Source: Pirellulales bacterium
GTDB taxonomy: Bacteria; Planctomycetota; Planctomycetia; Pirellulales; UBA1268
NCBI GenBank assembly: GCA_044376405.1
Contig: JBILKZ010000001.1
Location: forward strand, 24,214-88,213
Length of the DNA stretch: 64,000 nucleotides
Direction: 5' to 3'
Position numbers and translations under genes: made by a program. The notes under the pieces were generated by a model, which saw nothing but the letters and a program-made list of their open reading frames with translations, was not told where the DNA came from and searched no databases. This document shows positions 927-38,563 of this stretch, piece after piece. Numbering within the stretch: position 1 is the stretch's first letter; each line of letters opens with the position of its first letter.

Positions 927-954
927 CGAACCATTGACCGTCCTCGGGTGATTG

Positions 955-3896: not shown

Positions 3897-5333
3897 TCAT
3901 GCCAGCCAGTCGGTGATCACGCGGCCGTGCACGTCGGTGAGCCGGAAATCACGGCCGCTATGGCGGTAGGTGAGCTTCGTGTGGTCGAGGCCGAGCAGGT
4001 GAAGCATCGTCGCCTGCAGGTCGTGCACGTGCACTGGCTTCTCAACCGCTTTGAATCCAAGCTCGTCGGTGGCCCCATACACCGTGCCCGCCTTCACGCC
4101 GCCGCCGGCCATCCAGACAGTAAAACCGTGGTGGTTGTGGTCGCGGCCCGAGGGCTCCTTGACGCCCTGTTCGTTTGCCAGCTCAACAGTCGGCGTTCTG
4201 CCGAACTCGCCGCCCCACAGTACCAAGGTTGTGTCGAGCAGCCCGAGGCCGACGAGATCGTCGAGCAGGGCACCGATCGCCCGGTCGCATTCGCGTGCGA
4301 GCCTGCGATGGTTCTTCTCGATGTGTTCGTGGCTGTCCCACGGCTGGCCCTGGCCGTGCCAGAGCTGGACATACCGCACGCCCCGTTCGACGAGCCGCCG
4401 GGCGATGAGCATCTGCCGACCTTGCACGTCGTCGCCATAGCGGTCGCGGACATGCTTTGGCTCGCACGACACGTCAAAGGCCTCAGTCGCTTCCGACTGC
4501 ATCCTCCAGGCGAGTTCCATCGAGGCCAGCCGCGCCTCCAGCTGAGGATCATGTTGCCGCGCTTCGAGGTGGCGCCTGTCGAGGGCCGCTGTGAGGTCGA
4601 GCTGCCGCCGCTGCGTATCGCGGTCGAGCACGGGATGCCGCACATACTCGATGAGGTCCTCGACGAGGGTCTTCTTTGTGTCGATGTAGGTGCCCTGGAA
4701 AGCCCCCGGCAGGAAGGCACTCCGCCAGTTCTCCGTCTCCTTGATCGGATAGCCGCCGGGGCACATCGCCACGAAGCCGGGGAGATTTTGGTTCTCCGTG
4801 CCGAGGCCATAGGTCACCCACGCGCCGGCCGAAGGCCGGACCAGCCGCGCGTCGCCGCAGTTCATCAGCATCAGCGACGGCTCGTGATTTGGAACGTCGG
4901 CATGCATCGACCGCACGACGAGCAGCCGGTCGGCGTGGCGGGCCACGTGGGGAAAGAGGTCGCTCACCTCGAGGCCGCTCTCGCCGTGGCGGCTGAAAGC
5001 GAAGGGCGAAGGCAGGGCGGCCCCTGTCCGCCGCTCGGTGGCCAGCTTGTTGGGAATCTCCCGGCCGGCGTACTGCTCGAGCGCCACCTTGCGGTCGAAC
5101 GTGTCGAGATGGCTCGGGCCGCCGTTGGCGAAGATGTGGATCACGGCCCGGGCGCGGGCCGGGAAATGAGGAGGCCGCGGCGCCATCGACGTGGCCACCA
5201 CGGAGCCGGCCGACGCCGACTCCTGTTGCATGAGGGTCGCCGCCCCCAGCCAGCCGAGGCCCATGCCGGTGCGGGCGAGGGCCTCGCGACGGGTGAGTGG
5301 CAGTGGGTGGTGATTCGCGTGGGTCATATGCAT
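3897..5333 (-). CDS. DUF1501 domain-containing protein (sulfatase-like, Tat signal)
   Basis: 478 aa. Twin-arginine signal LTRREALARTGMGLGWLGAA. C-terminal WGGEFGRTP...GRDHN motif. Lies downstream of a PSCyt/DUF1553 gene, the canonical planctomycete pair. Confidence 0.85.
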   Translation of the reverse strand: MHMTHANHHPLPLTRREALARTGMGLGWLGAATLMQQESASAGSVVATSMAPRPPHFPARARAVIHIFANGGPSHLDTFDRKVALEQYAGREIPNKLATERRTGAALPSPFAFSRHGESGLEVSDLFPHVARHADRLLVVRSMHADVPNHEPSLMLMNCGDARLVRPSAGAWVTYGLGTENQNLPGFVAMCPGGYPIKETENWRSAFLPGAFQGTYIDTKKTLVEDLIEYVRHPVLDRDTQRRQLDLTAALDRRHLEARQHDPQLEARLASMELAWRMQSEATEAFDVSCEPKHVRDRYGDDVQGRQMLIARRLVERGVRYVQLWHGQGQPWDSHEHIEKNHRRLARECDRAIGALLDDLVGLGLLDTTLVLWGGEFGRTPTVELANEQGVKEPSGRDHNHHGFTVWMAGGGVKAGTVYGATDELGFKAVEKPVHVHDLQATMLHLLGLDHTKLTYRHSGRDFRLTDVHGRVITDWLA

Positions 5334-5497
5334 TGTCTTCCATCAAGCGTACCGCGCCGCCGGGACGGCAGAAGTTTCGTCGCGGTGGATTTGTCTCCTT
5401 CCACGACCTACGACAGCACATTCCTCAGAAGGTCGACAAATCCAAAAGCTCCTCAAGCTTCCGCCGATCCCGGCTCACGTCTTTGTTTCTTGATCGA

Positions 5498-8401: not shown

Positions 8402-8727
8402 GGCGGTTGGCCAGAGGCGGAGAGAGCAACGAGTCGATGGCGATGCCCGTTTGACGGGGCTCTTGATCACCCGCTTATTCTAATCGGCTACCGGGAGCGG
8501 GTTCCGTGCACGGTTTGAAATGACCTCCTTTTCCGAACTCTTCCATCCCGGCGAGCCTGTCGGATGGCCTTTTCCACAGCCGACGGCCGCAAAACTGCAT
8601 CGCTCGCACGGGAACCCAGAATGCCAGAAGCCTCGCGGTTCACTACGATCGTCGACCGACCGGCCTCGAGCGAGAAACCCTCCCGGCTGGATCAGGAGAC
8701 CGAACCAGGAGACCGAACCGAAAATCC

Positions 8728-9309
8728 ATGGTGCCTAAAACAATCCCTCAAGTGCTGATCGTGGTGGGCGACGCCACCGAGACCGTCGACACGCTCTATC
8801 CGTATTACCGGCTTCAGGAGGCGGGGTTCGAGCCGGTCGTGATCGCGCCCGAGCGGCGGACCTACCAGATGGTGCTCCACGAGGTGCGGCCCGGCTGGAC
8901 GATCACGAAGGAGTGGGAGGGCTATCAGATCAACGCCGATCTCGCCTTCGCCGACGTGCGGCCCGACGACTACCTGGGCATCTTCTTCAGCGGCGGTCGG
9001 GCGCCCGAGTACATCCGCTACGACGAGGATCTCGTGAGGATCACGCATCATTTCTTCAGCGAGAACAAACCGGCGGCCAGCGTCTGCCACGGGGTCGAGA
9101 TCCCGGCCTACGCCGACTGCGTGCGGGGGCGGAAGATGGCCACCGTGGCGAAATGCCGGTTCGACCTCGAGGTGGCCGGCGGCATCTTCGTCGACAGTGC
9201 GTGCGTGATCGACGGCAACCTCGTGAGCGGCCGCACGTATCGCGACAACGGCCACTTCGTCGGCCCGTGGATCCGGCTGCTCGAGGAAGCGCTCACGGCC
9301 CGGTCGTAA
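8728..9309 (+). CDS. DJ-1/PfpI family protein
   Basis: 193 aa. VLIVVGDATETVDTLYPYYRLQEAGF, nucleophile elbow SVCHG, and IDGNLVSGRTYRDNG are typical of PfpI-type class I glutamine amidotransferase-like proteins. Confidence 0.85.
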   Translation: MVPKTIPQVLIVVGDATETVDTLYPYYRLQEAGFEPVVIAPERRTYQMVLHEVRPGWTITKEWEGYQINADLAFADVRPDDYLGIFFSGGRAPEYIRYDEDLVRITHHFFSENKPAASVCHGVEIPAYADCVRGRKMATVAKCRFDLEVAGGIFVDSACVIDGNLVSGRTYRDNGHFVGPWIRLLEEALTARS

Positions 9310-9311
9310 GA

Positions 9312-10700
9312 ATGTCTCGTTTGCGGGATGCTGTACCGATGCACGAGCGACAGCTCACCTGTGCCGCCCACGGCCACATGCTCACGAACTCAGGCATCTG
9401 GTCGCCCGACTCGCGGTGGATCGTCTACGACACGCGGTCGAGTCCCGACGGCTCCGTCTTCGACGGCATGCGGATCGAACGGGTGGAGGTGGACTCGGGG
9501 CGGATCGAACTTCTGTATGAGTCGCGAAACGGGGCCTGCTGCGGTGTCGTGACGGCGAGCCCCGTGGACGACTGGGTGATTTTCATCCTCGGCCCCGAGC
9601 AGCCCACGGCCGATTGGCAGTATGGCCCGGCCCATCGGCAGGGCGTGGTCGTGCGGATGTCGCAGCCCGGTCTGATCGAGCCGCTCGATGCCCGCGACAT
9701 CGTGCCGCCGTTCACGGCCGGTGCTCTCCGCGGCGGCAGCCATGTGCATGTCGTGAGCCCCGACGGCAGGCTCGTGAGTTTTACCTACGAGGATGCGGTG
9801 TTGGATGGTCCGCCGGCTGCCGAAGTGACCGCCGGGGTGCCGCGCGAAAAAAACCTTCGCGGCATCGGCGTGAGCGTCTGCGGGAAGCCGGTGCAGGTGC
9901 CGCGGACGCACAAGCGCAATCACGACGGCACGGCGTTCAGCGTGCTCGCAACACGGCTGACAGACGAGCCAACCCCCGGCAGCGACGAGATCTGCAAAGC
10001 GTTCGAGGAGGCGTGGGTCGGCACGCACGGCTACCTGCGGCCCGATGGCACGCGGCAGCGGTATGCGCTGGCGTTTCAGGGGCATGTCGTCGTGCATGAC
10101 GCATCGATCGGCGGGCGGCGCACCATCAGTGAGGCCTTCGTCTGTGACCTGCCGGACGACCTCGATGAGCTGACGGTCGCAGGCGAACAGCCCCTCGCGG
10201 GCATGCCCACCAGCCGGCCGTCGCCACCCCGAGGCGTGGCCCACCGGCGGCTCACGTTCACCGCTGACCGCAGCCATCCGGGGATCGAGGGGCCGCGGCA
10301 CTGGCTGCGGTCGAGCCCGGATGGATCGCGAATCGCGTTTCTCATGTGCGATGAAGTCGGAGTTGTGCAGATCTTCACTGTGAGCCCCAATGGGGGCCCG
10401 CCTGTGCAGGTGACACGCGACGATTGGAGCGTGGCGAGCAGCTTCGGCTGGAGCCCCGACGGGAGGCGGATCGCGTATGTCGCCGACTTGAGCGTGTTCG
10501 TCGTCGACGTGGCCAGCAAGGCGAGTACGCGGCTCACCGACCGCACGATCGCCGCCCCGCCCCGGCCGGAAGCATGTGTGTTTTCGCCCGACGGCCGGCG
10601 GATCGCCTTCATGCGGAGCGTGGCCGGCCTGAGCACGCCGCGCGGGGATCCAGCGGCCGAGGTGCACAATCAGATCTTCGTCGTCGACGTGCCGGTGTGA
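9312..10700 (+). CDS. DUF3748 (YidR-like) beta-propeller protein with PD40/TolB-type repeats
   Basis: N-terminus HERQLTCAAHGHMLTNSGIWSPDSRWIVYDTRS resembles E. coli YidR. C-terminal WSPDGRRIAYV and FSPDGRRIAFMRS are PD40-like repeats. Start could be ATG 9312 or ATG 9339; the 5' part of the track ORF (8913-) overlaps the DJ-1 gene and is not coding. Confidence 0.75.
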   Translation: MSRLRDAVPMHERQLTCAAHGHMLTNSGIWSPDSRWIVYDTRSSPDGSVFDGMRIERVEVDSGRIELLYESRNGACCGVVTASPVDDWVIFILGPEQPTADWQYGPAHRQGVVVRMSQPGLIEPLDARDIVPPFTAGALRGGSHVHVVSPDGRLVSFTYEDAVLDGPPAAEVTAGVPREKNLRGIGVSVCGKPVQVPRTHKRNHDGTAFSVLATRLTDEPTPGSDEICKAFEEAWVGTHGYLRPDGTRQRYALAFQGHVVVHDASIGGRRTISEAFVCDLPDDLDELTVAGEQPLAGMPTSRPSPPRGVAHRRLTFTADRSHPGIEGPRHWLRSSPDGSRIAFLMCDEVGVVQIFTVSPNGGPPVQVTRDDWSVASSFGWSPDGRRIAYVADLSVFVVDVASKASTRLTDRTIAAPPRPEACVFSPDGRRIAFMRSVAGLSTPRGDPAAEVHNQIFVVDVPV

Positions 10701-14733: not shown

Positions 14734-14760
14734 ATTGCGGCCGCCGGTGTTCACGTCCGT

Positions 14761-14827
14761 AATCCCCCGGCTTGCGCCGGGGGCTTGTATGCGTGCATAC
14801 AAGCCCGGAGCGCGAGCGATGGGATTC
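14761..14827 (-). repeat. double-hairpin REP-like element, family 1 (inverted copy)
   Basis: AATCCCCCGGCTTGCGCCGGGGGCTTGTATGCGTGCATACAAGCCCGGAGCGCGAGCGATGGGATTC. It is the reverse complement of the copies at 28990, 35407 and 24325, and lies between the convergent glnA and SDR stops. Confidence 0.85.
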
Positions 14828-14835
14828 TCCGCCGT

Positions 14836-16875: not shown

Positions 16876-19812
16876 ATGTTCCGCGAAAACTTCTGCCTCA
16901 GCCGCGGCCTGCGGATGCTGACCTGGGCGGTGGTGAGCGGTGGCATCCTGCTTTCAGCAGAGGTCTTCGCCGAGCCGGTTGATTTCTCGCGAGACATTCA
17001 GCCGCTCTTCGCCAAGCGGTGCTTTTCCTGCCACGGTCCCGACACGCACGAAGCCGGCCTGCGACTCGATCAGCAGAACAATGCAACTGCTGCACTCGAC
17101 AGTGGCGGTCGGGCGATCGTGCCTGGGAAGTCCGCAGAGAGCGAGATCCTCGCGCGGATCACCTCGAACGACCCCGACACGCAGATGCCTCCCGAGGGCC
17201 CGCGGCTGACGGCGACGCAGGTCGACGCGATCACACGCTGGATCGACGAGGGAGCTGAGTGGAAGGAGCACTGGGCGTTCCGGCCGCTCGTGCGACCCGC
17301 AGTTCCGGCCGCGGCTGACGCCGGCGGGCAAGCCGCGAATCCGATCGATGCCTTCATCCGGTCTGGCCTTGCCCATCGCGGGCTCAAGGCACCCGCGCCA
17401 GCCGACAAGACGGCCCTCATCCGCCGGGCGACCTACGACCTGATAGGCCTGCCGCCGAACGAGCAGGAGGTCCGCGACTTCCTCGCCGATGACTCGGCTG
17501 CCGCCTGGGAGAAGGTGGTTGATCGGCTGCTCGCCAGTCCGCACTACGGCGAGCAGTGGGCCCGTCACTGGCTCGATCTCGTTCGTTATGCCGACACGAA
17601 CTCCTTCGAGCGTGACGGCAACAAGCCGCACGCCTGGCGGTATCGCGATTACGTGATCCGGTCGCTCAATGACGACAAGCCCTACGACCAGTTCGTGCTC
17701 GAGCAACTGGCCGGCGACGAGCTGCCCGAGCCCACGAACGACGCGTTCATCGCGACGGGCTACTACCGGCTCGGCGTCTGGGACGATGAGCCGGCCGACC
17801 GCGAACAGTTTCGCTACGACTGGCTCGACGACATTGTCGCGACCACTGGCCAGGTGTTTCTCGGCCTGACGGTCAACTGTGCCCGCTGCCACGACCACAA
17901 GATCGACCCGATTCCGCAGCGCGACTACTACAGCCTGCTCTCGTTTTTCGACAACGTCACGCCGATGGGCAGTGGCGGCGACCAGATCGAGCGGCCACTG
18001 TTCCAGGATGACGCCAATCGGCACGACTACGAGCGGAAGGTCGCTGATCTGAAACGCCGCCGCGATGAAGCACAGGTGGCCGTCACGGAGATCGAGGACC
18101 GATTCCGCACCGAGTGGGAGCGGCAGTCAGCGGGTCAGGTAGCGGGGGGCGACCTCGACGACCTCGCGTTTCGATTCTATCGAGACTCCTGGTCGAAGCT
18201 GCCCGTGTTCGATGATTTGAAGGCCGAAGACACGGGCCCCGTGCCCGGCCAGGTCTTCGACATCGCGGTCGCGCCGTCGCTGCGGCCCGACAACTTCGGC
18301 TACGTGTTCACCGGCTTTCTCAAGGTGCCGATGGATGGTGACTACACGTTCTCGCTTGACTCCGACGACGGCTCGCGGCTGGCCATCGACGGTCGCGTGG
18401 TCGTGGAACACGACGGCATCCACGGCGAGGGAAAGCCGAAGACGGCCACCGTGCCCTTGAAGGCGGGCCGCTCGCCGATCCGACTCGACTACTTTCAGGG
18501 TCGGCTGGGAAAGGGACTGACGGTTGGCTGGTCAGGCCCGGGGTTCACCGTGCGGTCGCTCTCGGCGGCGTCAGTGGCGGTGGGCAGCGCAGGGCTGGCG
18601 AAGAAGTCCGACCTGAAGAAGGCCATCGCCGCTGATGGCGAACGCATTCTGGGCAGCGACGGGAAGAAGGACTACGACGCGAAGGCGCGGGCGATTGAGG
18701 CCCTCAAGAAGGAGGACGTGCCCATCGACAAGGCGCTCGTCGTGACCGAACGCGGGCCCACGCCAGCCGATACGTTCGTCTTCTACCGCGGCAATCCACA
18801 CGCGGAAAAGAAGCCAGAAAACAAGGTCGGCCCGGCGTTTCCGTCGATCCTCAAGGCGAAGGATCCGGTGATCCCCACGCCGGCCGCGGATGCGAAGACG
18901 TCCGGCCGCCGCACGGCGCTGGCCCGCTGGCTCGTCTCGCCCGACAATCCGCTGACGGCCCGCGTGATGGCCAACCGAATCTGGCAGTATCACTTCGGCC
19001 GGGGCATCGTCCGCAGTGCCTCGAACTTCGGCATGATGGGCGATCCTCCCACCCATCCCGAACTGCTCGACTGGCTGGCCACGGAACTGGTCGCCGGCAA
19101 CTGGCGGCTCAAGCCCCTGCACAAGCTGATCCTCATGTCGGAGGCCTACCGTGGAGCGTCAACCGGCAACGCGGACGCGTTGGCGCACGCGGAGGCGTTG
19201 AAAGTCGACCCGCTCAACGATTCCTTCTGGCGATTCGACATGCGGCGGCTCTCGGCCGAGGAACTCCGCGACTCGATCCACGCGGCCAGCGGAGCCTTCA
19301 ATCCAAAAATGTTCGGGCCTGGCGTCTACCCCATGATCCCCAAGGAAGTGATGGCCGGACAATCGCGGCCTGGTGCAGGCTGGGGCGATTCGAGCCCGGA
19401 GGAGCAGGCCCGCAGGAGCGTCTACGCGTTCGTGAAGCGGTCGCTGATCACGCCGATCCTCGCCGACTTCGACCTCGCCGACACCGATACGAGCTGCCCC
19501 GTTCGGTTTACGACGACGCAGCCCACGCAGGCGCTCGGGATGATGAACGGTGAGTTCCTGCATCGGCAGGCGCGGGTGTTTGCCGAACGGGTCCGACGTG
19601 AGGCGGGTGGGCCCGATGCGGCTGATGTGCCGGCGCAGGTCCGCCGGGCACTGGAGATCGCGCTCGTGCGGGTGGTCACCGATGCCGAGGTTGCCAGGGG
19701 TATCGCCCTCATCGACAGGCTCGACGATGCCGATGGCGTCAGCCCCAGCCGAGCCATGGAACTTTTTTGCCTGATGGTGCTGAACCTCAACGAATTCGCT
19801 TATCTCGACTGA
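16876..19812 (+). CDS. PSCyt + DUF1549/DUF1553 protein with an internal PA14-like domain
   Basis: 978 aa. Signal peptide, CFSCHG heme motif and CARCHDHKIDP. The central segment GYVFTGFLKVPMDGDYTFSLDSDDGSRLAIDGRVVV...IRLDYFQG resembles a PA14 domain. Confidence 0.85.
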   Translation: MFRENFCLSRGLRMLTWAVVSGGILLSAEVFAEPVDFSRDIQPLFAKRCFSCHGPDTHEAGLRLDQQNNATAALDSGGRAIVPGKSAESEILARITSNDPDTQMPPEGPRLTATQVDAITRWIDEGAEWKEHWAFRPLVRPAVPAAADAGGQAANPIDAFIRSGLAHRGLKAPAPADKTALIRRATYDLIGLPPNEQEVRDFLADDSAAAWEKVVDRLLASPHYGEQWARHWLDLVRYADTNSFERDGNKPHAWRYRDYVIRSLNDDKPYDQFVLEQLAGDELPEPTNDAFIATGYYRLGVWDDEPADREQFRYDWLDDIVATTGQVFLGLTVNCARCHDHKIDPIPQRDYYSLLSFFDNVTPMGSGGDQIERPLFQDDANRHDYERKVADLKRRRDEAQVAVTEIEDRFRTEWERQSAGQVAGGDLDDLAFRFYRDSWSKLPVFDDLKAEDTGPVPGQVFDIAVAPSLRPDNFGYVFTGFLKVPMDGDYTFSLDSDDGSRLAIDGRVVVEHDGIHGEGKPKTATVPLKAGRSPIRLDYFQGRLGKGLTVGWSGPGFTVRSLSAASVAVGSAGLAKKSDLKKAIAADGERILGSDGKKDYDAKARAIEALKKEDVPIDKALVVTERGPTPADTFVFYRGNPHAEKKPENKVGPAFPSILKAKDPVIPTPAADAKTSGRRTALARWLVSPDNPLTARVMANRIWQYHFGRGIVRSASNFGMMGDPPTHPELLDWLATELVAGNWRLKPLHKLILMSEAYRGASTGNADALAHAEALKVDPLNDSFWRFDMRRLSAEELRDSIHAASGAFNPKMFGPGVYPMIPKEVMAGQSRPGAGWGDSSPEEQARRSVYAFVKRSLITPILADFDLADTDTSCPVRFTTTQPTQALGMMNGEFLHRQARVFAERVRREAGGPDAADVPAQVRRALEIALVRVVTDAEVARGIALIDRLDDADGVSPSRAMELFCLMVLNLNEFAYLD

Positions 19813-19854
19813 CCCGCCGATGTGGCGAGAAAAAACCCGACAAGGATCCCAGCC

Positions 19855-21375
19855 ATGCCATCCAGCCACGATCATCGACACGGCCAGTTCTGTCACAGGA
19901 CCCGTCGTGAATTCTTCTGGGAGGCGGGCGCGTCGTTCACGGGCCTGGCCCTGTCTGGCCTGCTCGATCAGGGGTTCTTCACGCGGCATGCCCATGCGGC
20001 AGGGCAGCTGGGCGGGGCCGCCGACACTCCGTTCACGAATCCGCTTGCGGCCAAGCCTCCGCACTTCGCGCCCAAGGCGAAGAGCGTGATCTTCCTCTTC
20101 ATGTATGGCGGGCCGAGCCAGGTCGACACATTCGACTACAAGCCGAAGCTCTACGGCCTCGACGGCAAGACGATCGATGTGAAGACAAAGGGACGCGGCG
20201 GCGAGAAGAGCCAGGGCCGGGTCGTCGGCCCCAAGTGGAAGTTCAAGCAGTATGGACAGTGCGGCAAGTGGGTGAGCGATCTCTTTCCACACATCGCGAC
20301 TCATGTGGACGACATCGCGTTCATCCACTCGATGACGGCCGACTCGCCGATCCATGGCTCGGCGATGCTGCAGATGAACTCGGGGAAAATTCAGTCGGGT
20401 GCTCCCTGTCTGGGCTCGTGGGTGAACTATGGCCTCGGCAGTGTCAACGAGAACATGCCGGGCTTCGTGGTGATGCTCGATCCCACCGGCGGCCCGATCT
20501 CGGGCGCGAAGAACTGGTCGAGCGGCTACATGCCGGCGACCTACCAGGGCACGCTCTTGCGATCCAAGGGTTCGCCGATCCTCGATCTCGCGCCACCCGA
20601 CGATATGCCGCTGGAAGCGCAGCGCACGATGCTCGATGCCCTTCGTGAGACCAACACGGCCCACCTGCTCTCCCGCGGCGACAACACGGAACTCGCCGCG
20701 CGGATCGCCTCCTATGAACTGGCCTGGAAGATGCAGGAGCACGCGCCTGAGGCGGTTGATCTGGCCAGTGAGACAGAGGAGACGAAGAAACTCTACGGAC
20801 TGGAGAACCCGCGGACGGCGGACTTCGGCCGGCGGTGCCTGCTCGCGCGGCGGCTCGTCGAACGGGGCGTGCGTTTTATCCAGCTCTATTCCGGTGGCGC
20901 CCACAACGACGATAACTGGGATGCCCACACCGATATGGAAAAGAACCACAATTTCCACGCCGGGAATACCGACCAGCCGGTGGCGGCGCTGCTCACCGAT
21001 CTGAAGCGGTCGGGCCTGCTGGATTCGACGCTCGTGATCTGGGGCGGCGAGTTTGGCCGTCAGCCGACGGCAGAGTATGCCGAGGGCACGGGCCGCGACC
21101 ACAACTCATTCGGGTTCACGATGTGGATGGCCGGCGGCGGCATCAAGGGAGGCGTGAGCGTGGGCGAGACGGACGAACTGGGCTCGGCGGCGATCAGCCC
21201 TGGCCCCGGCCATGGCAACGGCGACAAGCCGGGCTTCCACGTGAAGAGTCTGCACGCCACGGTGCTGCACCAGCTTGGCCTCGACCCCAACCGGCTCTCC
21301 TATTTTTTCGGCGGCCTCGACCAGAAGCTCGTCGGTGTCGAACACGTCGAACCGATCCGAGAGGTGCTCGCATGA
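19855..21375 (+). CDS. DUF1501 domain-containing protein
   Basis: ATG 19855 gives the Tat-like signal HRTRREFFWEAGASFTGLALSGLL (the track ORF starts at GTG 19822). WGGEFGRQP...GRDHN motif. The stop overlaps the next start (ATGA). Confidence 0.85.
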   Translation: MPSSHDHRHGQFCHRTRREFFWEAGASFTGLALSGLLDQGFFTRHAHAAGQLGGAADTPFTNPLAAKPPHFAPKAKSVIFLFMYGGPSQVDTFDYKPKLYGLDGKTIDVKTKGRGGEKSQGRVVGPKWKFKQYGQCGKWVSDLFPHIATHVDDIAFIHSMTADSPIHGSAMLQMNSGKIQSGAPCLGSWVNYGLGSVNENMPGFVVMLDPTGGPISGAKNWSSGYMPATYQGTLLRSKGSPILDLAPPDDMPLEAQRTMLDALRETNTAHLLSRGDNTELAARIASYELAWKMQEHAPEAVDLASETEETKKLYGLENPRTADFGRRCLLARRLVERGVRFIQLYSGGAHNDDNWDAHTDMEKNHNFHAGNTDQPVAALLTDLKRSGLLDSTLVIWGGEFGRQPTAEYAEGTGRDHNSFGFTMWMAGGGIKGGVSVGETDELGSAAISPGPGHGNGDKPGFHVKSLHATVLHQLGLDPNRLSYFFGGLDQKLVGVEHVEPIREVLA

Positions 21376-22382
21376 AAAAGGTGCCAGCCACCAAATTTAG
21401 GCAAGCTGCGTTGTCCCCCTGCCGATCTTTCCCAGATTTGGTGGCTGGCACCGTTTTCTTTTTGGCGCTGCTGCCCACGGTGACGGTCGCGGAAGCACCG
21501 CAGACCGCGGTGCAGACGGGCCCGCCCCGCCGGGTGATCGCGGCCGATTCATCGACGAAGACGATGGCCTCCATCGACTCCGACGGTCGGGTGGAGTGGA
21601 AGCTCCCGTGCGGGCAGATCCATGATCTGCACCTGTTGCCCGACGGTCACATCCTCTATTCAGATGGCTGGACGCGGATCGTGGAGCTCGATGAGCACCG
21701 CAAGCCGATCTGGGACTACAACGCGAAGCGGAATGGCAACGCCGGCCGGACGGTCGAGGTGCATGCTTTCCAGCGGTTGCCTGACGGCACGACGATGATC
21801 GTCGAGTCGGGGCCGGCCCGGATCATCGAGGTCGCTCGCGACGGCACCCTGCGGCACGATATCAAGCTGACGGTGAACGAACGGTCGGCACACTCCGACA
21901 CACGGAACGCGCGGAAGACCGAGGCCGGCACCTACCTCGTGGCCCACGAGAAGGATGGCGTTGTCCGGGAGTATGACGCCACAGGAAAGGTCGTCTGGGA
22001 GTTCGACGTGCCGCTTTTTGACAAGCCGAAGAAGGGGGGGCACGGCCCCGAAGCCTTCGGCGACCAGGTTTATTCGGCCGTCAGGCTCGCCAACGGCAAC
22101 ACGCTCATCGGCACCGGCAACGGCCACAGCGTGCTCGAGGTGACGCCTGCCAAGGAGATCGTGTGGAAGATCGAGCAGCACGACCTGCCGGGGATCGTGC
22201 TGGCCTGGGTGACACAGGTGAGCCGCCTCAAAAACGGCAACACGCTCATCGTCAACTGCCACGCCGGCCCAGAGCAGCCGCAGATCATCGAGGTCACTCC
22301 GGAGAAGCAGGTCGTCTGGACGTTTAAAGATTTTCAGACGTTTGGCAACTCGCTGCCGGTGGCGGTGGTGCTGGATCCATGA
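21372..22382 (+). CDS. secreted beta-propeller repeat protein (PQQ-like/ASST-like repeats)
   Basis: ATG 21372 overlaps the upstream stop. Repeated DG.(I/V).W / NGNTLI blades. The first 28 codons are supplied by palindromic element family 3. Confidence 0.7.
   Translation: MKKVPATKFRQAALSPCRSFPDLVAGTVFFLALLPTVTVAEAPQTAVQTGPPRRVIAADSSTKTMASIDSDGRVEWKLPCGQIHDLHLLPDGHILYSDGWTRIVELDEHRKPIWDYNAKRNGNAGRTVEVHAFQRLPDGTTMIVESGPARIIEVARDGTLRHDIKLTVNERSAHSDTRNARKTEAGTYLVAHEKDGVVREYDATGKVVWEFDVPLFDKPKKGGHGPEAFGDQVYSAVRLANGNTLIGTGNGHSVLEVTPAKEIVWKIEQHDLPGIVLAWVTQVSRLKNGNTLIVNCHAGPEQPQIIEVTPEKQVVWTFKDFQTFGNSLPVAVVLDP
21374..21458 (+). repeat. palindromic element family 3, copy A (inside CDS)
   Basis: Arms GAAAAAGGTGCCAGCCACCAAAT (21374-21396) and ATTTGGTGGCTGGCACCGTTTTC (21436-21458); 39-nt spacer. 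Confidence 0.85.
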
Positions 22383-24236: not shown

Positions 24237-24390
24237 ATCCCGTCGCTCGCGCTCAGGGCTTGGATGGTGATGACGGGGGAATCCCGTTGCTCGCGCTCAG
24301 GGCTTGGATGGTGATGACGGGGGAATCCCGTCGCTTGCGCTCAGGGCTTGGATGGCGGTATACAAGCCCCCGGCGCGAGCCGGGGGATTC
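24237..24390 (+). repeat. family 1 element with two extra 44-bp truncated tandem units
   Basis: ATCCCGTYGCTYGCGCTCAGGGCTTGGATGGTGATGACGGGGGA occurs at 24237-24280 and 24281-24324. A near-full unit follows at 24325-24390, ending TACAAGCCCCCGGCGCGAGCCGGGGGATTC. Confidence 0.85.
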
Positions 24391-24392: not shown

Positions 24393-26054
24393 TCACAACG
24401 CCATCCGCAACCCGATGTCGTCGTTGCCCTCGACCTTGTCAACGCCTGGGGCGACCGGGCCGCCGTCATCCTCGCCGTCGGGGCCGATGGAGTAGACGAG
24501 CAGCGCGTCGTCGGTCTGCTTCATGACCAGCGGCTGGTCGGCCGTGAAGGGATCGCGGGATGCAGGTGGCACCAGCTGGGCCGCCAGTTCTTCAAATGTC
24601 TCTGGCACCGCGCCCGACTCGAGCCGCTCTTTCGTCGCGGCGACGAGCGCCGAGGCGGCGCGGTGGTTGGCAACGCTGCGGGTCTGCTGGCGGAAGACGG
24701 CCCCCAGCGCCGGCACGATCATCGACGACATCATGCCCGGTGAGCGGTCTCGAGTCTGCGACTCGATGGCGTCGATGCGGTTTGTCAGTGCAGGGTAAGG
24801 CTCCGATCGGCTCGCTGCTGCCTGGTACTGCGTCATGATCGACCGGTAGCCCGCGAGGTCGGACGAGAGGAAGAAGACACGGTACGGAAGGGAGAGCGGA
24901 AGGGCACGGAGGGCGGATGGTTGTGGTTGCCCATTTCCAGCAAGGTCAATGAGATCGGGCCCGCTGCGTTGGTCGTCCGCCAGTTCCGCGAAGATGGAAA
25001 GCCCGAAGGCCTCCTCGCCGTAGAAATGGCTCGCCATGGCCGGCGGGGTTGTGACGAGATCGCGGATCTCGGGTGCGTCGAGAACCGCGAGATCGCTCTT
25101 CCGGAGCGTCGGCAGCACCTGCGCGAGCGTCTCGAGAGCCATAGTGTCGATCGCGATGCCGACCAGGTTTGAGATCAGGATCGGCTCACTCGCTGCGTGA
25201 CGTCCAATCCGCTGGATGCGGGCCACGTCGCGGAGGGCATCCTCTGCGTTGCCGTCGGCCGCCTCACGACGGGCGTCCAGCACGAGCAGGCGGGCCGCCG
25301 TGCGCAGCGATTGCATTTCGGGCAGCAGCATGTCGATGGACGGACGAGTCCAGTCACGCTGGAATCGGCAGGTGTCGCGATCGGCTGCGCGGCGAATCAA
25401 ATCGAGCGTGGCGGCATGTCTGGCGAGTGTTTCTGGCACGGTCGGATTGGCCACGTCCATCGTTGTCGCCGTGGTGAGCGGCGAGTTCACCTCCTTGATC
25501 GTGGGATCGGCGTCGAGGATCGCGAAGGCCTGCTGGTAGAGAGGAGCGGCGTTCTGCTGCTCTGGGACGACCGGCGGCATGTTGGTCTGCATCAGCTGCC
25601 CCGCCTCGAGCCGCAGGTAGGGTGCCTGTGCCGCCACGGCGTTGTCGATAATCAGAAGCGTGCCAAACGACACCGCCTTGGCTATCACGAAGGCCGCCGC
25701 CAGACCGACGACGGGCCAGCGGGCGGCCGGCGGCACGGGCTGGTCCGCGAAGGAAAATGGTGCGTACCACCGCCAGCCCAGCCCGGTCCAGGCGATCCAG
25801 ATGACGCCGATGCTCGCCGAGAGAAACGTGGTGAGCGCCGGGCCGAACCAGTTGGTCGGCAGGTGCTTCCCGAAGGCGAGAAAAGCCGTGAACCAGACGA
25901 ACGGTGCGAGTGCAACGACCGGCGGGATCACGGCCACGGCCTCGAGGAGCCGCCGCAGCCAGGGACGGTGCGTTTGCGCCGCGGCGGCCGTGCAGGCGGC
26001 TGACCAGAGCAGGCATGATGCGACGACGAACACGAAGAAAAGAAAGTGGCCCAT
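24393..26054 (-). CDS. polytopic membrane protein, unknown function
   Basis: 553 aa with about 5 N-terminal hydrophobic helices and then a large soluble domain. The start overlaps the stop of the upstream anti-sigma-like gene. Confidence 0.6.
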   Translation of the reverse strand: MGHFLFFVFVVASCLLWSAACTAAAAQTHRPWLRRLLEAVAVIPPVVALAPFVWFTAFLAFGKHLPTNWFGPALTTFLSASIGVIWIAWTGLGWRWYAPFSFADQPVPPAARWPVVGLAAAFVIAKAVSFGTLLIIDNAVAAQAPYLRLEAGQLMQTNMPPVVPEQQNAAPLYQQAFAILDADPTIKEVNSPLTTATTMDVANPTVPETLARHAATLDLIRRAADRDTCRFQRDWTRPSIDMLLPEMQSLRTAARLLVLDARREAADGNAEDALRDVARIQRIGRHAASEPILISNLVGIAIDTMALETLAQVLPTLRKSDLAVLDAPEIRDLVTTPPAMASHFYGEEAFGLSIFAELADDQRSGPDLIDLAGNGQPQPSALRALPLSLPYRVFFLSSDLAGYRSIMTQYQAAASRSEPYPALTNRIDAIESQTRDRSPGMMSSMIVPALGAVFRQQTRSVANHRAASALVAATKERLESGAVPETFEELAAQLVPPASRDPFTADQPLVMKQTDDALLVYSIGPDGEDDGGPVAPGVDKVEGNDDIGLRMAL

Positions 26055-26515
26055 CAGAGATCCCCCTGCAGGAAAGAGCGAGTATCGAGCACATGGAGTG
26101 TATTGCGGTGACGCGGGATGAGAGTGTCGTACGGCAGGCCGCCGGCCACCTGCACGGCGGGCGGGGGCATGACATCGAGCGTGATACCGGCCGCCTCGGC
26201 CCGCTGGGCGAACGAGAGCAGCGGTCGCTCAGTGGCGGCGCTGACAGAGCGCGAAGCGGCGTCACTCGACAGGATCGCGGCGATCAGCAACGACAGGGAC
26301 GTGCCCATCAAAAAGGTGACAGCCACCAAATCTGCGTATTCTGGGGAATGTCGTTGCGCAGCTTTCCCAGATTTGGTGGCTGGCACCATTTTCGGGAGCA
26401 CGTCGTCGACGGCCGTGAGCACCCGGGATCGTAGGGCGGGAGGCGGTGCCTGCCGCGTGCGATCATGCAGCAGCTTCTCGACGGCTGACGTGTCACGGTC
26501 GAATGGAGAGGTCAT
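26054..26515 (-). CDS. putative anti-sigma factor (single-pass membrane protein)
   Basis: 153 aa, located immediately downstream of and overlapping the ECF sigma gene. One TM helix (VAVTFLMGTSLSLLIAAIL). It contains palindromic element family 3 in frame. Confidence 0.5.
   Translation of the reverse strand: MTSPFDRDTSAVEKLLHDRTRQAPPPALRSRVLTAVDDVLPKMVPATKSGKAAQRHSPEYADLVAVTFLMGTSLSLLIAAILSSDAASRSVSAATERPLLSFAQRAEAAGITLDVMPPPAVQVAGGLPYDTLIPRHRNTLHVLDTRSFLQGDL
26309..26393 (-). repeat. palindromic element family 3, copy B (inside CDS)
   Basis: Arms CAAAAAGGTGACAGCCACCAAAT (26309-26331) and ATTTGGTGGCTGGCACCATTTTC (26371-26393). The spacer is related to copy A when read on the minus strand (GG[A/C]AAGCTGCG). 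Confidence 0.85.
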
Positions 26516-27093
26516 CGGACGGACTCCGGATGGGTGAGCGTGGCACGAATGTTTTCAATCGCATAGCGGTAGCGGCTGGCGGCGGTATTGATGCTCGTGC
26601 CGATGACGGCCGCGATCTCCACGAAGGTAAGGCCACCGTCGATTTTGAGTGCGAGCACCTCCCGCTGGGCTGGCGGCAATCCTGCCACTGCTGCGGTCAA
26701 CGCATCGTCGGGCGGTTCTGCCGGCTGCATGGTGAACCCGCCTGCCTCGACACGCCGCCTCGCGACGGTATCAATCGCCCGCCGGTCCACGTCCCGCCGC
26801 CGCCGTCGCCGGCTGACCGCATGACGCAGCATCGTGAAGATGTAGGCGTCGAGGTCGGTGATCCGGGCGAGCCGGTCGCGACAGCGGGCCAGCTCCACGA
26901 ACAGGTCGTGCACGATGTCTTCGGCGTCTGGCAGGGAATCGGTCATGGTGCGAGCGGTGTTGAAGAGGCGGACGGCGAGCCGGTCGTAGAGGGCCGCGAA
27001 GGCCTCCGGATCCCCGGCAGCCAGCTGTTCTCCAATCGTTGTGGGCGTTTTGGCCACCCTTCTCTCTCCGCCAGTCGGTGCAGTTATGTCCAA
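26512..27093 (-). CDS. RNA polymerase ECF-type sigma-70 factor
   Basis: Region 2 (DAEDIVHDLFVELAR...DAYIFTMLRHAV) and region 4 HTH (LPPAQREVLALKIDGGLTFVEIAAVIGTSINTAASRYRYAIENI). Confidence 0.85.
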   Translation of the reverse strand: MDITAPTGGERRVAKTPTTIGEQLAAGDPEAFAALYDRLAVRLFNTARTMTDSLPDAEDIVHDLFVELARCRDRLARITDLDAYIFTMLRHAVSRRRRRRDVDRRAIDTVARRRVEAGGFTMQPAEPPDDALTAAVAGLPPAQREVLALKIDGGLTFVEIAAVIGTSINTAASRYRYAIENIRATLTHPESVR

Positions 27094-28983: not shown

Positions 28984-28989
28984 TTCCGA

Positions 28990-29061
28990 GATCCCGTCGC
29001 TTGCGCTCAGGGCTTGTATGCGGAGAGTCGCATACAAGCCCCCGGCGTGAGCCGGGGGATC
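28990..29061 (+). repeat. double-hairpin REP-like element, family 1 (archetype)
   Basis: GATCCCGTCGCTTGCGCTCAGGGCTTGTATGC-GGAGAGTC-GCATACAAGCC-CCCCGGC-GTGA-GCCGGGGGATC. It forms an 11-bp hairpin and an 8-bp hairpin with a GTGA loop, and starts 7 nt after the cysI stop. Confidence 0.85.
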
Positions 29062-35364: not shown

Positions 35365-35406
35365 GTGGCAATGCGACAGGCGGGCGAGAGGGTTTGAATG
35401 CCAGGT

Positions 35407-35478
35407 GATCCCGTCGCTTGCGCTCAGGGCTTTTATGGGGAGAGTCACATACAAGCCCCCGGCGTGAGCCGGGGGATC
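35407..35478 (+). repeat. double-hairpin REP-like element, family 1
   Basis: GATCCCGTCGCTTGCGCTCAGGGCTTTTATGGGGAGAGTCACATACAAGCCCCCGGCGTGAGCCGGGGGATC, located 43 nt after the upstream stop. Confidence 0.85.
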
Positions 35479-37708: not shown

Positions 37709-38563
37709 ATGCTCCGATCGAATCGTTTCTATGTTCAACGTTGCGTTCCGAATCACGGGGGGCAACCCCGTTGGATCGCTCTGCTCGCCGTGCTCCTCGT
37801 CGTCGCGGCCACTCCATCCGCCCATGCCCACGACACCTGGCTGCAAGCCTCGCCGCGGCTCGTTCAGCCCGATGACGTCGTGCACGTCGGTCTCTTTCTT
37901 GGCAACCATGGCAACGAGCACCGCGACTTCAAGATCGCCGGCAAGGTCGGCTCGCTCGAGGGCGTGCAGGTGGGCGTGATCGGCCCCGACGGCCGGAAGA
38001 CCGACCTCGTACCCGACATGGTCGATCTCGGCTACGCGCCGAAGGAAGGCTTCTGGACGGCACGATTCGTGCCGGCCACGGCGGGCCTCCACTGCGTGGC
38101 CCACTACCGCGAAGGCGTTCGCCATGGGGCGATGGGATTCAAGGGAGGCAAGACCTACTTCCTCGCCTCCGAGTCGCTCGACAGTCCGGGCAAGCCGACG
38201 GCCACGCTGCCTGAGCCGCTCGGCCATCCGCTCGAACTGGTGCTGGAGAGCCACCCGGTGCTCGCCTGCGGGCCTGGCAAGCCGATCGTCGTGCGTCTGC
38301 TGCTCAAGGGGAAGCCCCTTGCCGATCAGGTCGTGTCGTTCATCCCGCGTGGGGCGACGCTCGCCGATGGCTTCGACCCGAATCACGAACGAAAAACCGA
38401 CGCGGATGGCCGGTGCAGCTACACGCCGCAGGAGGGCAACCTGGTGCTGGTTGTCGCGCACCACGTCGATCCCGAGCAGAAGGGGGAGGGGTATGAGAAG
38501 GCGAGCTACGCCGCCACCCTTGTTCTCGACGTGCCGCAGCGGTGCCCGTGCTGCGCGGAGTGA
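37709..38563 (+). CDS. DUF4198 domain protein (Ni/Co-uptake-associated periplasmic fold) ending in CPCC
   Basis: ATG 37709, signal peptide ...PSAHAHDTWL (mature N-terminus HDTW as in DUF4198), and a transthyretin-like C-terminal part (KPLADQVVSF...TDADGRCSY). The C-terminus is QRCPCCAE. Confidence 0.7.
   Translation: MLRSNRFYVQRCVPNHGGQPRWIALLAVLLVVAATPSAHAHDTWLQASPRLVQPDDVVHVGLFLGNHGNEHRDFKIAGKVGSLEGVQVGVIGPDGRKTDLVPDMVDLGYAPKEGFWTARFVPATAGLHCVAHYREGVRHGAMGFKGGKTYFLASESLDSPGKPTATLPEPLGHPLELVLESHPVLACGPGKPIVVRLLLKGKPLADQVVSFIPRGATLADGFDPNHERKTDADGRCSYTPQEGNLVLVVAHHVDPEQKGEGYEKASYAATLVLDVPQRCPCCAE

What the first reader, a model, noticed from the sequence alone, without database searches (positions are those of the whole stretch)
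21374..21458. Palindromic element inserted in frame at the N-terminus of a secreted beta-propeller protein (RPE-like)
An 85-bp element has 23-bp inverted arms (GAAAAAGGTGCCAGCCACCAAAT / ATTTGGTGGCTGGCACCGTTTTC). It lies immediately after the ATG at 21372, which is coupled to the upstream stop. It encodes KKVPATKFRQAALSPCRSFPDLVAGTVF, running straight into the hydrophobic core of the signal peptide. There is no alternative Met for about 65 codons. A second copy sits inside an unrelated gene (26309-26393) in the same orientation relative to the reading frame. That copy encodes the related peptide KMVPATKSGKAAQRHSPEYADLVAVTF, again directly before a transmembrane helix. Because the element is a palindrome, both arms are translatable (VPATK and DLVAGT). 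This resembles the Rickettsia palindromic elements that insert in frame into genes. I do not know of such elements being described for Planctomycetota.
Basis: partly seen in the sequence, partly recalled or inferred. Interest (0 to 1): 0.7.

Follow-up and report, generated by a model that had tools for sequence, protein, structure and literature searches.

The report
Palindromic repeat read through inside genes
An 85-base palindromic repeat, found in many copies across Planctomycetota genomes and usually placed just after stop codons, has here landed inside two genes and is read in frame as part of a signal peptide and of a membrane-anchor linker; this behaviour is already known from other bacterial repeats.

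Summary
Two copies of an ~85-nt near-perfect palindrome lie at 21374-21458 and 26309-26393. The arm gives 4 matches in the window against 0.07 expected.

It belongs to a large dispersed family with consensus GAAAAAGGTG[C/A]CAGCCACCAAATCTGGGCAA…TTGCCCAGATTTGGTGGCTG[G/T]CACCTTTTTC. It comes in three size classes, shows no target-site duplication and matches no Rfam family.

Most copies are intergenic, and the stop codon of the upstream gene typically merges with the terminal A-run. Copy 1 has that position but sits inside the next gene, because stop and start overlap (ATGA). Close orthologues, some over 90% identical, lack the 28-aa segment and carry ordinary short signal peptides. Copy 2 lies inside a putative anti-sigma gene; a few orthologues lack it, and every border indel is a multiple of three.

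At least eight host families carry the element in frame in N-terminal signal or anchor regions, in all three frames, and 21 ORFs end inside a copy.

The in-frame, RPE-like reading is supported. For copy 1, a start codon inside the right arm cannot be excluded. I class it as a new family of a known kind (REP/MITE/RPE-like). How it moves is unknown; one RAYT-like gene flanked by copies is a lead only.

The parts
21374..21458 (.). Palindromic element, copy 1 (85 nt). Left arm 21374-21396, central part 21397-21435, right arm 21436-21458.
   Evidence: (D3, I18). It belongs to the 63-nt core-to-core class of the family.
21372..21375 (+). ATGA junction: the ATG of the beta-propeller gene overlaps the TGA of the DUF1501 gene. 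The element begins at the GA of the stop codon.
   Evidence: The same ATGA overlap is present in filled (L118, L120) and empty (L117, L119, L132) orthologous loci.
21372..22382 (+). Host gene 1: a secreted PQQ_2 / Mala_s_1-like beta-propeller protein of 336 aa. Residues 2-29 are encoded by the element. The predicted signal peptide is MKKVPATKFRQAALSPCRSFPDLVAGTVFFLALLPTVTVAEA.
   Evidence: translation; Pfam; orthologues with and without the segment.
19822..21375 (+). Upstream DUF1501 gene. Its stop codon merges with the A-run at the end of the element, which is the usual position for this family.
   Evidence: PF07394, 478 bits. Family-wide pile-up of stop codons at element ends.
26309..26393 (.). 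Palindromic element, copy 2 (85 nt), read on the minus strand as KMVPATKSGKAAQRHSPEYADLVAVTF.
   Evidence: (D3, I7, I10).
26054..26515 (-). Host gene 2: a 153-aa single-pass membrane protein, assigned as a putative anti-sigma factor from its position only. The element encodes residues ~42-69, between the conserved N-terminal helix (…LRSRVLTAVDDVL) and the transmembrane helix.
   Evidence: No Pfam hit. Start ATGA-coupled to the ECF sigma gene. 188 homologues. Alignment. Orthologous DNA.
26512..27093 (-). ECF sigma factor gene immediately upstream of host gene 2, in the same operon.
   Evidence: Sigma70_r2, r4_2, Sigma70_ECF. The same gene order is seen in L125-L130.

Best explanation
Both window features are copies of a high-copy family of small palindromic repeats. 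The family is REP/MITE-like and confined, as far as sampled, to Planctomycetota.

A unit consists of an A-run, a conserved arm of ~23-31 nt (AAAAAGGTGCCAGCCACCAAATCTGGGCAA), a variable centre, the complementary arm and a T-run. On either strand it can therefore form a long hairpin followed by a U-run.

The family's usual place is the first bases after a stop codon. Where neighbouring genes overlap (ATGA/GTGA), that place is the first codons of the next gene.

The arms contain no stop codon in any frame, except in the GGTGA subfamily in one frame. Such copies are therefore read through. In the frame used here, the left arm gives a basic, polar stretch (KKVPATK) and the right arm plus T-run gives a hydrophobic stretch (DLVAGTFF). 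This mimics the n-region and the start of the h-region of a signal peptide, or the cytoplasmic juxtamembrane linker of an N-in anchor.

Copy 1 has become most of the signal peptide of a secreted beta-propeller and would be cleaved off. Copy 2 links the cytoplasmic part of a putative anti-sigma factor to its transmembrane helix.

Shown here:
- repeat family membership;
- presence/absence polymorphism at both sites;
- frame conservation;
- the same behaviour in other host genes.

Inferred:
- that translation of host 1 starts at the coupled ATG;
- that intergenic copies act as terminator-like or mRNA-end hairpins;
- that spread is driven by a Y1 (RAYT-like) transposase.
For: Family. Conservation ends 11 nt outside the 12-nt core. 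There are 136 paired elements against 8 solo arms in 0.88 Mb.

Usual position. The 3' ends of genes facing an element cluster at -5 to +4 nt from the element end (about 45 of 95). Facing 5' ends are spread over 0-150 nt. A stop trinucleotide is fused to the purine run at 77 of 239 ends.

Host 1 insertion. Searches show filled and empty alleles with a conserved ATGA junction. In L118/P0002 only FFFTAAASAEA follows the element, so the right arm must supply part of the h-region.

Host 2 insertion.. The empty form is …EEVLHDDRPMRRAEPAGGSEWLPVGVL…. Border indels of 12 and 15 nt and the arm duplications are all in frame.

Generality.
- PPC-domain protein: filled MEKGASHQIWRRW…RFGGWHLF against empty MWRRISHMLVIVACL….
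- Further signal-peptide or Tat-signal cases: L090, L033/L054, L041, L042/L082/L115, L056/L100/L112, L029.
- Anti-sigma paralogues carry the element at the same site.
- 21 ORFs end inside a copy, 13 of them as …KKVPATKSG*.

Sequence maintenance. In host-2 orthologues the arms differ by 3% and the loop by 9%, against 22-24% in the flanking codons, with no codon-phase periodicity inside the element. Across the family, the pair at position -1 is C-G in 79 copies, A-T in 29 and T-A in 5, with 3 unpaired.
Against: Host 1. The start codon cannot be fixed from sequence. In-frame TTG/GTG codons lie in the right arm, L131 has even gained an in-frame ATG there, and JGI gene calls P0266 and P0276 start there.

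Mobility.
- No target-site duplication was found.
- No IS-sized pair of arms was found.
- Both filled alleles lack 27-57 nt that are present in the empty alleles. The event was therefore not a clean insertion.

Terminator idea.
- Neighbour-gene orientation (63 tandem, 18 divergent, 13 convergent) matches the background.
- The simple terminator scan picks up only small local hairpins in the arms.

Structure selection. Within the host-2 orthologues only one compensated pair occurs, and 245 of 500 shuffles do as well. Other stretches of the same operon, in the sigma gene, are also only 4-5% divergent, so the locus is a mosaic.

Method. Gene calls in the 116 loci come from a crude self-trained caller.
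Confidence: 0.72

Rival explanations
1. Copy 1 is an untranslated intercistronic element. On this reading, the propeller gene starts at the in-frame TTG (21441) or GTG (21444) in the right arm. The left arm and centre would be a structured spacer between the DUF1501 stop and the real start, so only the last ~7 element-encoded residues are translated.
For: - In-frame TTG/GTG codons lie in the right arm.
- My codon-usage caller prefers 21441 as the start.
- JGI called P0266 (MVAGTFFF…) and P0276 (LVAGTVFF…) from that position.
- L131 has acquired an ATG at that position.
- Many family copies do sit directly in front of start codons as 5' leaders: L002, L024, L096, L102, L038/L043.
- Di Nocera et al. 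make the same caveat for REPs at N-termini (PMC3733652).
Against: - A signal peptide starting at MVAGTVFF… would have no basic n-region, whereas every empty orthologue has one (MKR…, MRR…, MTR…).
- The ATGA overlap is conserved in all filled and empty loci.
- The ORF from that ATG is open in every filled allele seen, including across an 18-nt in-frame duplication in L131.
- Other hosts offer no start codon at all within or after the element. An example is L041, where a GTGA overlap is followed by the element and then RRRLF.
- This reading does not apply to copy 2.
Confidence: 0.25
2. The two genic copies are kept because the hairpin has a function in cis as RNA or DNA. On this reading they are not tolerated passengers. 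Possible functions are an attenuator or terminator inside the operon that is overridden by translating ribosomes, an RNase processing site, enforcement of strict translational coupling at the ATGA junction, or a protein-binding site.
For: - In host-2 orthologues the element differs by 3-9% where neighbouring codons differ by 22-24%, also at third codon positions and without codon periodicity.
- The arms stay canonical even in anti-sigma paralogues that are less than 50% identical.
- The hairpin is very stable and is flanked by an A-run and a T-run.
- The base pair at position -1 covaries across the family.
Against: - In L128, L129 and L130 the palindrome decays while the ORF is kept.
- In-situ covariation is not significant.
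- In host 1 the loop diverges faster than the gene (28% against 16.5%).
- Gene conversion from other copies, or recombination between lineages, could also keep the arms uniform.
- There are no expression data.
Confidence: 0.2
3. The segment is a genuine conserved protein motif, for example a juxtamembrane or signal-peptide module, and the DNA palindrome is incidental.
For: - The peptide is conserved in about 110 of the 120 best host-2 homologues and in several paralogue clusters.
- It precedes a hydrophobic helix in both hosts.
Against: - The same DNA occurs mostly outside genes. When it is inside ORFs, it is read in all three frames, giving unrelated peptides (KKVPATK, EKGASHQIW, KRCQPPN).
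- Orthologues of both hosts exist without it.
- Substitutions inside it show no codon-position pattern.
Confidence: 0.02
4. The arms are a species-group signature sequence of the DNA-uptake-sequence type, or another protein recognition site, that tends to occur as inverted pairs behind genes. On this reading it is not a mobile element.
For: - The 17-23-nt arm is almost invariant across many genomes.
- It is paired in inverted orientation just after stop codons. From my own knowledge, Neisseria DUS pairs are arranged in a similar way.
Against: - Solo arms are rare: 8 against 136 paired. Uptake sequences occur mostly singly.
- The centre has its own conserved subfamilies and size classes, which fits a unit that is copied as a whole.
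- Presence/absence polymorphism concerns the whole 85-nt unit.
Confidence: 0.04

Closest known systems
Rickettsia palindromic elements (RPE-1 and relatives)
   Same: Both are small palindromic repeats, many copies of which sit in frame inside unrelated ORFs and add a peptide segment without destroying the protein. N-terminal decorations occur in both (PMC10969869; PMC3733652).
   Different: - Different phylum.
- No sequence relationship was tested or is expected.
- RPE-1 is ~100-150 bp and mostly intragenic. This family is 71-96 nt and mostly intergenic, with genic copies concentrated at gene ends, signal peptides and juxtamembrane sites.
REP / REPIN elements with RAYT transposases, including the 'TIR' repeats of TIRYT genes (Di Nocera et al. 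2013, PMC3733652)
   Same: - Located predominantly downstream of coding regions and within 20 bp of the upstream ORF's 3' end.
- The termini often provide the stop codon.
- Some copies lie inside ORFs and many at N-termini.
- No target-site duplication.
- REP families and many Y1 transposase genes are reported for the planctomycete R. baltica.
- One RAYT-like gene flanked by copies of the present element was found here (L106).
   Different: - A single long hairpin of ~27-31 bp with a 20-40-nt centre, rather than 20-40-bp units or dimers.
- No GTAG or CGTC tag, from sequence inspection.
- The RAYT link rests on one locus. The homologous gene in L081 has different TIRs of its own.
MITEs with terminator-like or mRNA-structure effects (SPRITE of S. 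pneumoniae, Correia/NEMIS, ERIC)
   Same: - Size.
- Long terminal inverted repeats.
- A stable RNA hairpin; SPRITE resembles a rho-independent terminator.
- ERIC copies occur intragenically with open frames (PMC10969869).
   Different: - No target-site duplication.
- No parent IS with the same ends in 0.88 Mb.
- No experimental evidence of termination or processing.
MIRU-type intercistronic repeats of mycobacteria (recalled from my own knowledge, not checked here)
   Same: Both sit between genes of an operon, with small ORFs whose start and stop overlap those of the flanking genes. This resembles the ATGA/GTGA/TGATG junctions seen here.
   Different: MIRUs are tandem direct repeats, not palindromes, and are not fused into the downstream protein.

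Membership tests
Dispersed palindromic repeat family (generic: REP/MITE-like) | Many copies at non-orthologous sites within and across genomes | tested here: met
One MAG (CAZDHR01) alone contributes at least 17 loci. 136 paired units in 0.88 Mb.
Dispersed palindromic repeat family (generic: REP/MITE-like) | Presence/absence polymorphism of the whole unit at orthologous sites | tested here: met
   Host 1. Host 2. PPC-domain host. The filled alleles also lack 27-57 nt of host sequence.
MITE (non-autonomous DNA transposon) | Terminal inverted repeats | tested here: met
   Arms of 23-31 nt, 88-97% complementary.
MITE (non-autonomous DNA transposon) | Target-site duplication flanking the unit | tested here: not met
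   No direct repeat of 2-8 nt above expectation at any tested boundary offset in 121 copies.
MITE (non-autonomous DNA transposon) | A full-length IS with the same termini | tested here: inconclusive
   No arm pairs at IS-like distances were found in 0.88 Mb. Only L106 has a Y1 transposase gene lying between a degenerate copy and a full copy. Whole genomes could not be scanned.
REP/REPIN-RAYT system | Conserved GTAG (or CGTC) tag at one end of a 20-40-bp palindrome | tested here: not met
   The consensus GAAAAAGGTGCCAGCCACCAAATCTGGGCAA contains neither tetranucleotide. The unit is 71-96 nt.
REP/REPIN-RAYT system | RAYT (Y1 HUH transposase) gene flanked by copies of the repeat | tested here: inconclusive
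   In L106, positions 679-1374 (-) match PF01797 at 46 bits (cut-off 23) and NF047646 at 71.5 bits (cut-off 80). The gene is flanked by a degenerate copy at 628-702 and a full copy at 1474-1554. This is one case among ~120 copies. The L081 homologue has different TIRs.
REP/REPIN-RAYT system | Location just downstream of ORFs, often supplying or touching the stop codon | tested here: met
   Peak of facing 3' ends at -5 to +4 nt. A stop trinucleotide is fused at 77 of 239 ends. This matches PMC3733652.
Rickettsia palindromic elements (RPE) | Membership by sequence in RPE-1 to RPE-10 of Rickettsiales | not tested
   No RPE library was available. The host phylum is different and Rfam gave no match. 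The comparison is treated as an analogy only.
Rickettsia palindromic elements (RPE) | In-frame insertion into ORFs with the protein kept intact | tested here: met
   Host 2 is robust. Host 1 is probable. At least 8 host families in total.
Intrinsic-terminator-like repeat (SPRITE-like) | GC-rich hairpin directly followed by a T-run, on one or both strands | tested here: met
   A at positions -10 to -6 in 61-98% of ends, which gives a T-run after the stem on either strand. Hairpin energies.
Intrinsic-terminator-like repeat (SPRITE-like) | Causes transcript 3' ends | not testable with these tools
   No transcript data. Neighbour-gene orientation classes are not enriched for convergent pairs.

The most novel reading that the evidence does not exclude
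The element is more than a tolerated passenger. On this reading it is a portable, selected module. Dropped at a stop/start junction, it supplies a start-proximal basic segment and a hydrophobic segment, that is, a ready-made signal-peptide or anchor front end. At the same time it places a very stable hairpin on the start codon, so that the downstream secreted protein is made only by ribosomes arriving from the upstream gene. Within the sigma/anti-sigma operon it would act as a translation-sensitive attenuator. Its nucleotide sequence would therefore be under selection inside coding regions across Planctomycetota.
Probability: 0.12. Interest if true: 0.75.

Novelty: new member of a known kind. 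Interest (0 to 1): 0.5.

Why it matters
- **Annotation.** The family gives a concrete marker for annotating Planctomycetota genomes. Hundreds of start sites, short spurious ORFs and C-terminal tails (…KKVPATKSG*) are probably mis-called or altered because of this repeat.

- **Protein evolution.** It shows how a selfish or structural DNA repeat can repeatedly become part of signal peptides and membrane-anchor linkers. These are regions where almost any basic-then-hydrophobic peptide is acceptable. This extends the RPE/REP 'in-frame repeat' phenomenon to a phylum rich in secreted proteins.

- **Open question.** The unusually low divergence of the element inside a fast-evolving gene is worth testing for a cis-acting role or for gene conversion.

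Tried and rejected
- **Rfam.** The gathering scan of the window found only a tRNA. The E-value scan of the element gave only sub-threshold miRNA-like hairpin matches.
- **Target-site duplications.** None found at any boundary offset.
- **IS-sized arm pairs or solo arms.** 8 solos, mostly decayed copies.
- **Viral contigs.** 0 matches.
- **Terminator hypothesis via neighbour-gene orientation.** No enrichment of convergent pairs over background.
- **In-situ covariation in host-2 orthologues.** Not significant: one compensated pair. I therefore dropped the claim that pairing is demonstrably selected in the genic copy.
- **Orientation of copy 2 relative to copy 1.** Undecidable, 65/85 against 63/85.
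- **Metagenome search for host-2 relatives.** Only 4 loci. The orthologous DNA had to come from 12 contig look-ups instead.
- **Host-1 divergence comparison.** Partly spoiled by indel misalignment. Only the window-versus-L118/L114 values are used.
- **Literature searches for a description of this family in Planctomycetota.** Nothing found. The search for the E. coli REP/stop-codon stalling paper also found nothing in the held library, so that parallel rests on my own recollection.
- **RAYT association.** One supportive locus (L106) and one ambiguous locus (L081).
Full report
**1. The observation**

The sequence at 21374-21458 reads GAAAAAGGTGCCAGCCACCAAAT-(39 nt)-ATTTGGTGGCTGGCACCGTTTTC. A second 85-nt copy lies at 26309-26393. 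The arms are 22/23 complementary in copy 1 and 20/23 in copy 2.

The 17-nt arm core, with up to 3 mismatches, occurs four times in the window (two per element). The expectation is 0.07, and no shuffle reaches four.

Either strand of either copy folds into one long hairpin of -44 to -47 kcal/mol, with z between -5.1 and -5.9.

The ATG at 21372 overlaps the TGA at 21373-21375 of a 517-aa DUF1501 gene. The ORF from that ATG encodes MKKVPATKFRQAALSPCRSFPDLVAGTVFFLALLPTVTVAEAPQ…, followed by a PQQ_2/Mala_s_1-like beta-propeller. The next Met is residue 65, but in-frame TTG and GTG codons lie in the right arm.

Copy 2 is read on the minus strand inside a 153-aa ORF, as …VLPKMVPATKSGKAAQRHSPEYADLVAVTFLMGTSLSLLIAAILSS…. 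This ORF is ATGA-coupled to an ECF sigma-factor gene.

The relative 'orientation' of the two copies cannot be defined, because the unit is nearly its own reverse complement (65/85 against 63/85 identities). What the two copies share is the reading frame.

**2. What the sequence is**

A pattern made of the two 12-nt arm cores with a 25-55-nt gap was scanned against one genome per species. All but one are genuine units.

The loci come from at least 52 assemblies. Almost all are freshwater or other environmental MAGs labelled Planctomycetia, Pirellulales, Planctomycetaceae, Thermoguttaceae or Isosphaeraceae. A few carry evidently automatic labels such as Kuenenia or Chitinophagaceae.

- **Conservation outside the pattern.** GGTG is 97-99% conserved, and is preceded by four to six A. 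Conservation stops 11 nt outside the core.
- **Stem extension.** Inside the core the stem continues as (C/T)TGGG.AA / TT.CCCA(G/A).
- **Size classes.** Core-to-core lengths are 49, 63-67 and 73-77 nt, giving whole units of about 71, 85 and 96 nt.
- **Pair next to the core.** It is C-G in 79 copies, A-T in 29 and T-A in 5, and is unpaired in only 3 of 117.
- **Negative results.** There is no target-site duplication. Solo arms are rare and no IS-sized arm pair was found. There is no Rfam family and no copy in viral contigs.

**3. Where the copies sit**

I called genes in the loci with a crude caller trained on their own long ORFs. With those calls, most copies are intergenic.

The 3' ends of genes that face an element pile up at -5 to +4 nt from the element end (about 45 of 95). 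In these cases the T(G/A)A stop codon merges with the A-run. A second group ends 31 nt inside the unit. By contrast, 5' ends facing an element are spread over 0-150 nt. By direct inspection, 77 of 239 ends have a stop trinucleotide fused to the purine run.

Twenty-one ORFs run into a copy and stop there, 13 of them as …(K)KVPATK(S/F)G*.

The orientation of neighbouring genes (63 tandem, 18 divergent, 13 convergent) does not differ from the background of the same loci. The hairpin-plus-T-run shape therefore suggests a terminator or mRNA-end structure, but the position data do not prove it.

**4. Copy 1 is an insertion into the signal-peptide region**

Of the 120 best orthologues of the propeller protein (70-88% identical), only P0001-P0005, P0030 (degenerate) and P0063 carry the segment. 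The others begin with short ordinary signal peptides, such as MKWLTLLAALLPAVTFAEAPPTAVQTG.

The window protein's own 90%-identity cluster contains both kinds:
- filled forms: P0263, P0001, P0264, P0265, P0271, P0273;
- empty forms: P0267-P0269, P0272, P0274, P0275.

DNA from filled loci (window, L118, L120, L114, L131) and empty loci (L117, L119, L132) shows the same upstream sequence and the same ATGA overlap. In filled loci ATGA is followed by AAAAGGTGCC…. In the empty allele L132, whose flanks are 91% identical to the window, it is followed by CAAGGTTTGCC….

The filled alleles have also lost about nine codons of the old h-region. Compare P0001 …DLVAGTFFFVCAALLSQRAVAESPP with P0267 MTRFAALLCLVCATLLSQRAVAESPP. 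In L118/P0002 only FFFTAAASAEA follows the unit, so the right arm must be translated for the signal peptide to have a hydrophobic core.

Whether translation begins at the coupled ATG or at the TTG/GTG of the right arm cannot be settled from sequence.

In favour of the ATG:
- the conserved ATGA junction;
- the basic n-region it provides, which every empty orthologue also has;
- an ORF that stays open even through an 18-nt duplication in L131.

In favour of the internal start:
- some gene callers use it (P0266, P0276);
- L131 has gained an ATG there.

**5. Copy 2 is translated**

The 153-aa protein has 188 detectable homologues. About 110 of the best 120 carry PKKVPATKSGKAAQRHPPEYADLVAGTFL at the same place. 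Five 147-aa orthologues instead have …EEVLHDDRPMRRAEPAGGSEWLPVGVL…. Intermediates read …EEVLRDDRTKKVPATK….

The DNA pair L125 (empty) and L126 (filled) is nearly identical on both sides. It shows the 85-nt unit in place of about 57 nt of host sequence.

The N-terminal 40 residues are conserved and coupled to the sigma gene, and the transmembrane helix follows the unit directly. The two parts can form one protein only by read-through, as they do in the empty orthologues.

All length differences at the borders are multiples of three: 12 nt, 15 nt and several duplications of arm ends.

In L128, L129 and L130 the palindrome has decayed or lost its centre while the ORF persists.

More distant paralogues (L015, L084, P0243, P0248, P0250, P0256) have a unit with a different centre at the same position.

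**6. The same thing happens in other genes and other frames**

- **PPC-domain secreted protein (L113).** It has the unit in a second frame: MEKGASHQIWRRWVNSRRKPPRFGGWHHFVALLAFGATASA|APPE. Its orthologues split into filled forms (P0277, P0278, P0280, P0281, P0294, and degenerate P0298 and P0305) and empty forms (P0279, P0282-P0289: MWRRISHMLVIVACLAPL…).
- **DUF1501 proteins (L033/L054, L041).** The unit lies between a start that overlaps the upstream stop and the twin-arginine motif.
- **Other cases.** L090, L042/L082/L115, L056/L100/L112 and L029 have it in front of a signal-peptide core.
- **Leader copies.** Other copies are clearly 5' leaders that end at the start codon: L002, L024, L096, L102, L038/L043.

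The arms contain no stop codon in any frame, except for a TGA in one frame of the GGTGA subfamily.

**7. Sequence maintenance**

Nine host-2 orthologues have intact arms. Their mean pairwise difference by region is:

| Region | All positions | Third codon positions |
|---|---|---|
| 99 nt at the 5' end of the gene | 22% | 34% |
| Arms | 3% | 0-3% |
| Centre of the unit | 9% | 7% |
| ~90 nt after the unit | 23.5% | 27% |

Inside the unit the three codon phases differ equally (7.1, 9.5 and 6.5%). The flanking stretch after the unit shows the usual excess at the third position.

This points to a constraint on the nucleotides, or to homogenisation. Three findings limit that conclusion:
- Other parts of the operon are also only 4-5% divergent.
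- Covariation within this orthologue set is not significant (one compensated pair).
- In host 1 the centre diverges faster than the gene.

I leave this point unexplained.

**8. Mobility**

No mechanism is shown. One lead comes from L106. A 232-aa Y1 transposase-like gene there matches PF01797 at 46 bits, and matches the NCBIfam REP-associated tyrosine transposase model at 71.5 bits, below its 80-bit cut-off. The gene lies between a degenerate unit that overlaps its stop codon and a full unit about 100 nt upstream of its start.

A 45%-identical homologue in L081 has different inverted repeats of its own (GGGGTCACTGCTCATTTT). These fit the GGGGWSAS type of Di Nocera et al. The present unit lies 220 nt away from that gene (PMC3733652).

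Two such neighbours among about 120 sampled copies are suggestive, not conclusive.

**9. Comparison with what is known, and verdict**

All of the following are documented for REPs, RPEs, ERIC and other MITE-like repeats (PMC3733652; PMC10969869):
- small palindromic repeats close to stop codons;
- occasional supply of the stop codon;
- in-frame genic copies, including N-terminal ones.

REP families have been reported in the planctomycete R. baltica. The present family lacks the GTAG/CGTC tag, is longer, and has no target-site duplication and no known parent element. I found no description of it in the searches.

I therefore class it as a new member of a known kind.

Noticed in passing
window 14756-14830, 24237-24388, 28985-29061, 35402-35478, 55285-55313: A second palindromic repeat family, unrelated to the first: GATCCCGTCGCT.GCGCTCAGGGCTTGTATG … CATACAAGCCCCCGGCG.GAGCCGGGGGATC. 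At 24237-24368 it forms three tandem 44-nt units between two convergent genes, followed by a GC hairpin that the scan flags as terminator-like. It contains CGTC and may be a CGTC-tagged REP in the sense of PMC3733652.
   Followed up: no
window 38553-38586, 50702-50801: A third repeat, GGTCATTGAAAAGGGGACGCAGCTCTTTTCCA. Two tandem copies lie at 50702-50765, an inverted copy at 50769-50801, and a further copy at 38553-38586.
   Followed up: no
window 201-281 and 843-923: An 81-nt direct repeat, 79% identical, with copies 642 nt apart (D5).
   Followed up: no
window ~3900-10000 versus 16876-21375: Inverted similarity (73-82% over 42-83-nt stretches) indicates a paralogous PSCyt/DUF1549/DUF1553 + DUF1501 gene pair on the opposite strand (I2, I4-I6, I9). 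A tRNA gene lies at 3741-3814 on the minus strand.
   Followed up: no
L106 628-1554: A RAYT-like Y1 transposase gene (679-1374, minus strand) is bracketed by a degenerate copy and a full copy of the element. Its last 8 codons (…EKAIWVH*) are encoded by the degenerate copy.
   Followed up: partly
L081 4220-5177: A homologous Y1 transposase gene carries its own 28-nt inverted repeats (GGATAGATAAGGGGTCACTGCTCATTTT), which contain the GGGGWSAS motif. It is preceded by tandem GGGGATAGATAA repeats. This is a TIRtron-like unit in an Isosphaeraceae MAG.
   Followed up: partly
L045 7245-7270; flanks of many elements (e.g. L008, L010, L052, L072, L097; L131 177-212): There are short duplications of the terminal AAAAGGTGCC next to full elements. 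There is also a mini-palindrome, AAAATGGTGCCTGGCACCTTTTT, made only of the outermost arm parts. The same duplications show up as repeated KKVP/LVAGTF peptides in some orthologues (P0181, P0229, P0173, P0224, P0265).
   Followed up: partly
L127 1624-1706: In one host-2 lineage both arms changed to GGTGCCTGGCACC, giving the peptides VPGTK / LVPGTV. Each arm thereby becomes a small palindrome of its own. One C-G to G-C compensated pair and one T·T mismatch result.
   Followed up: partly
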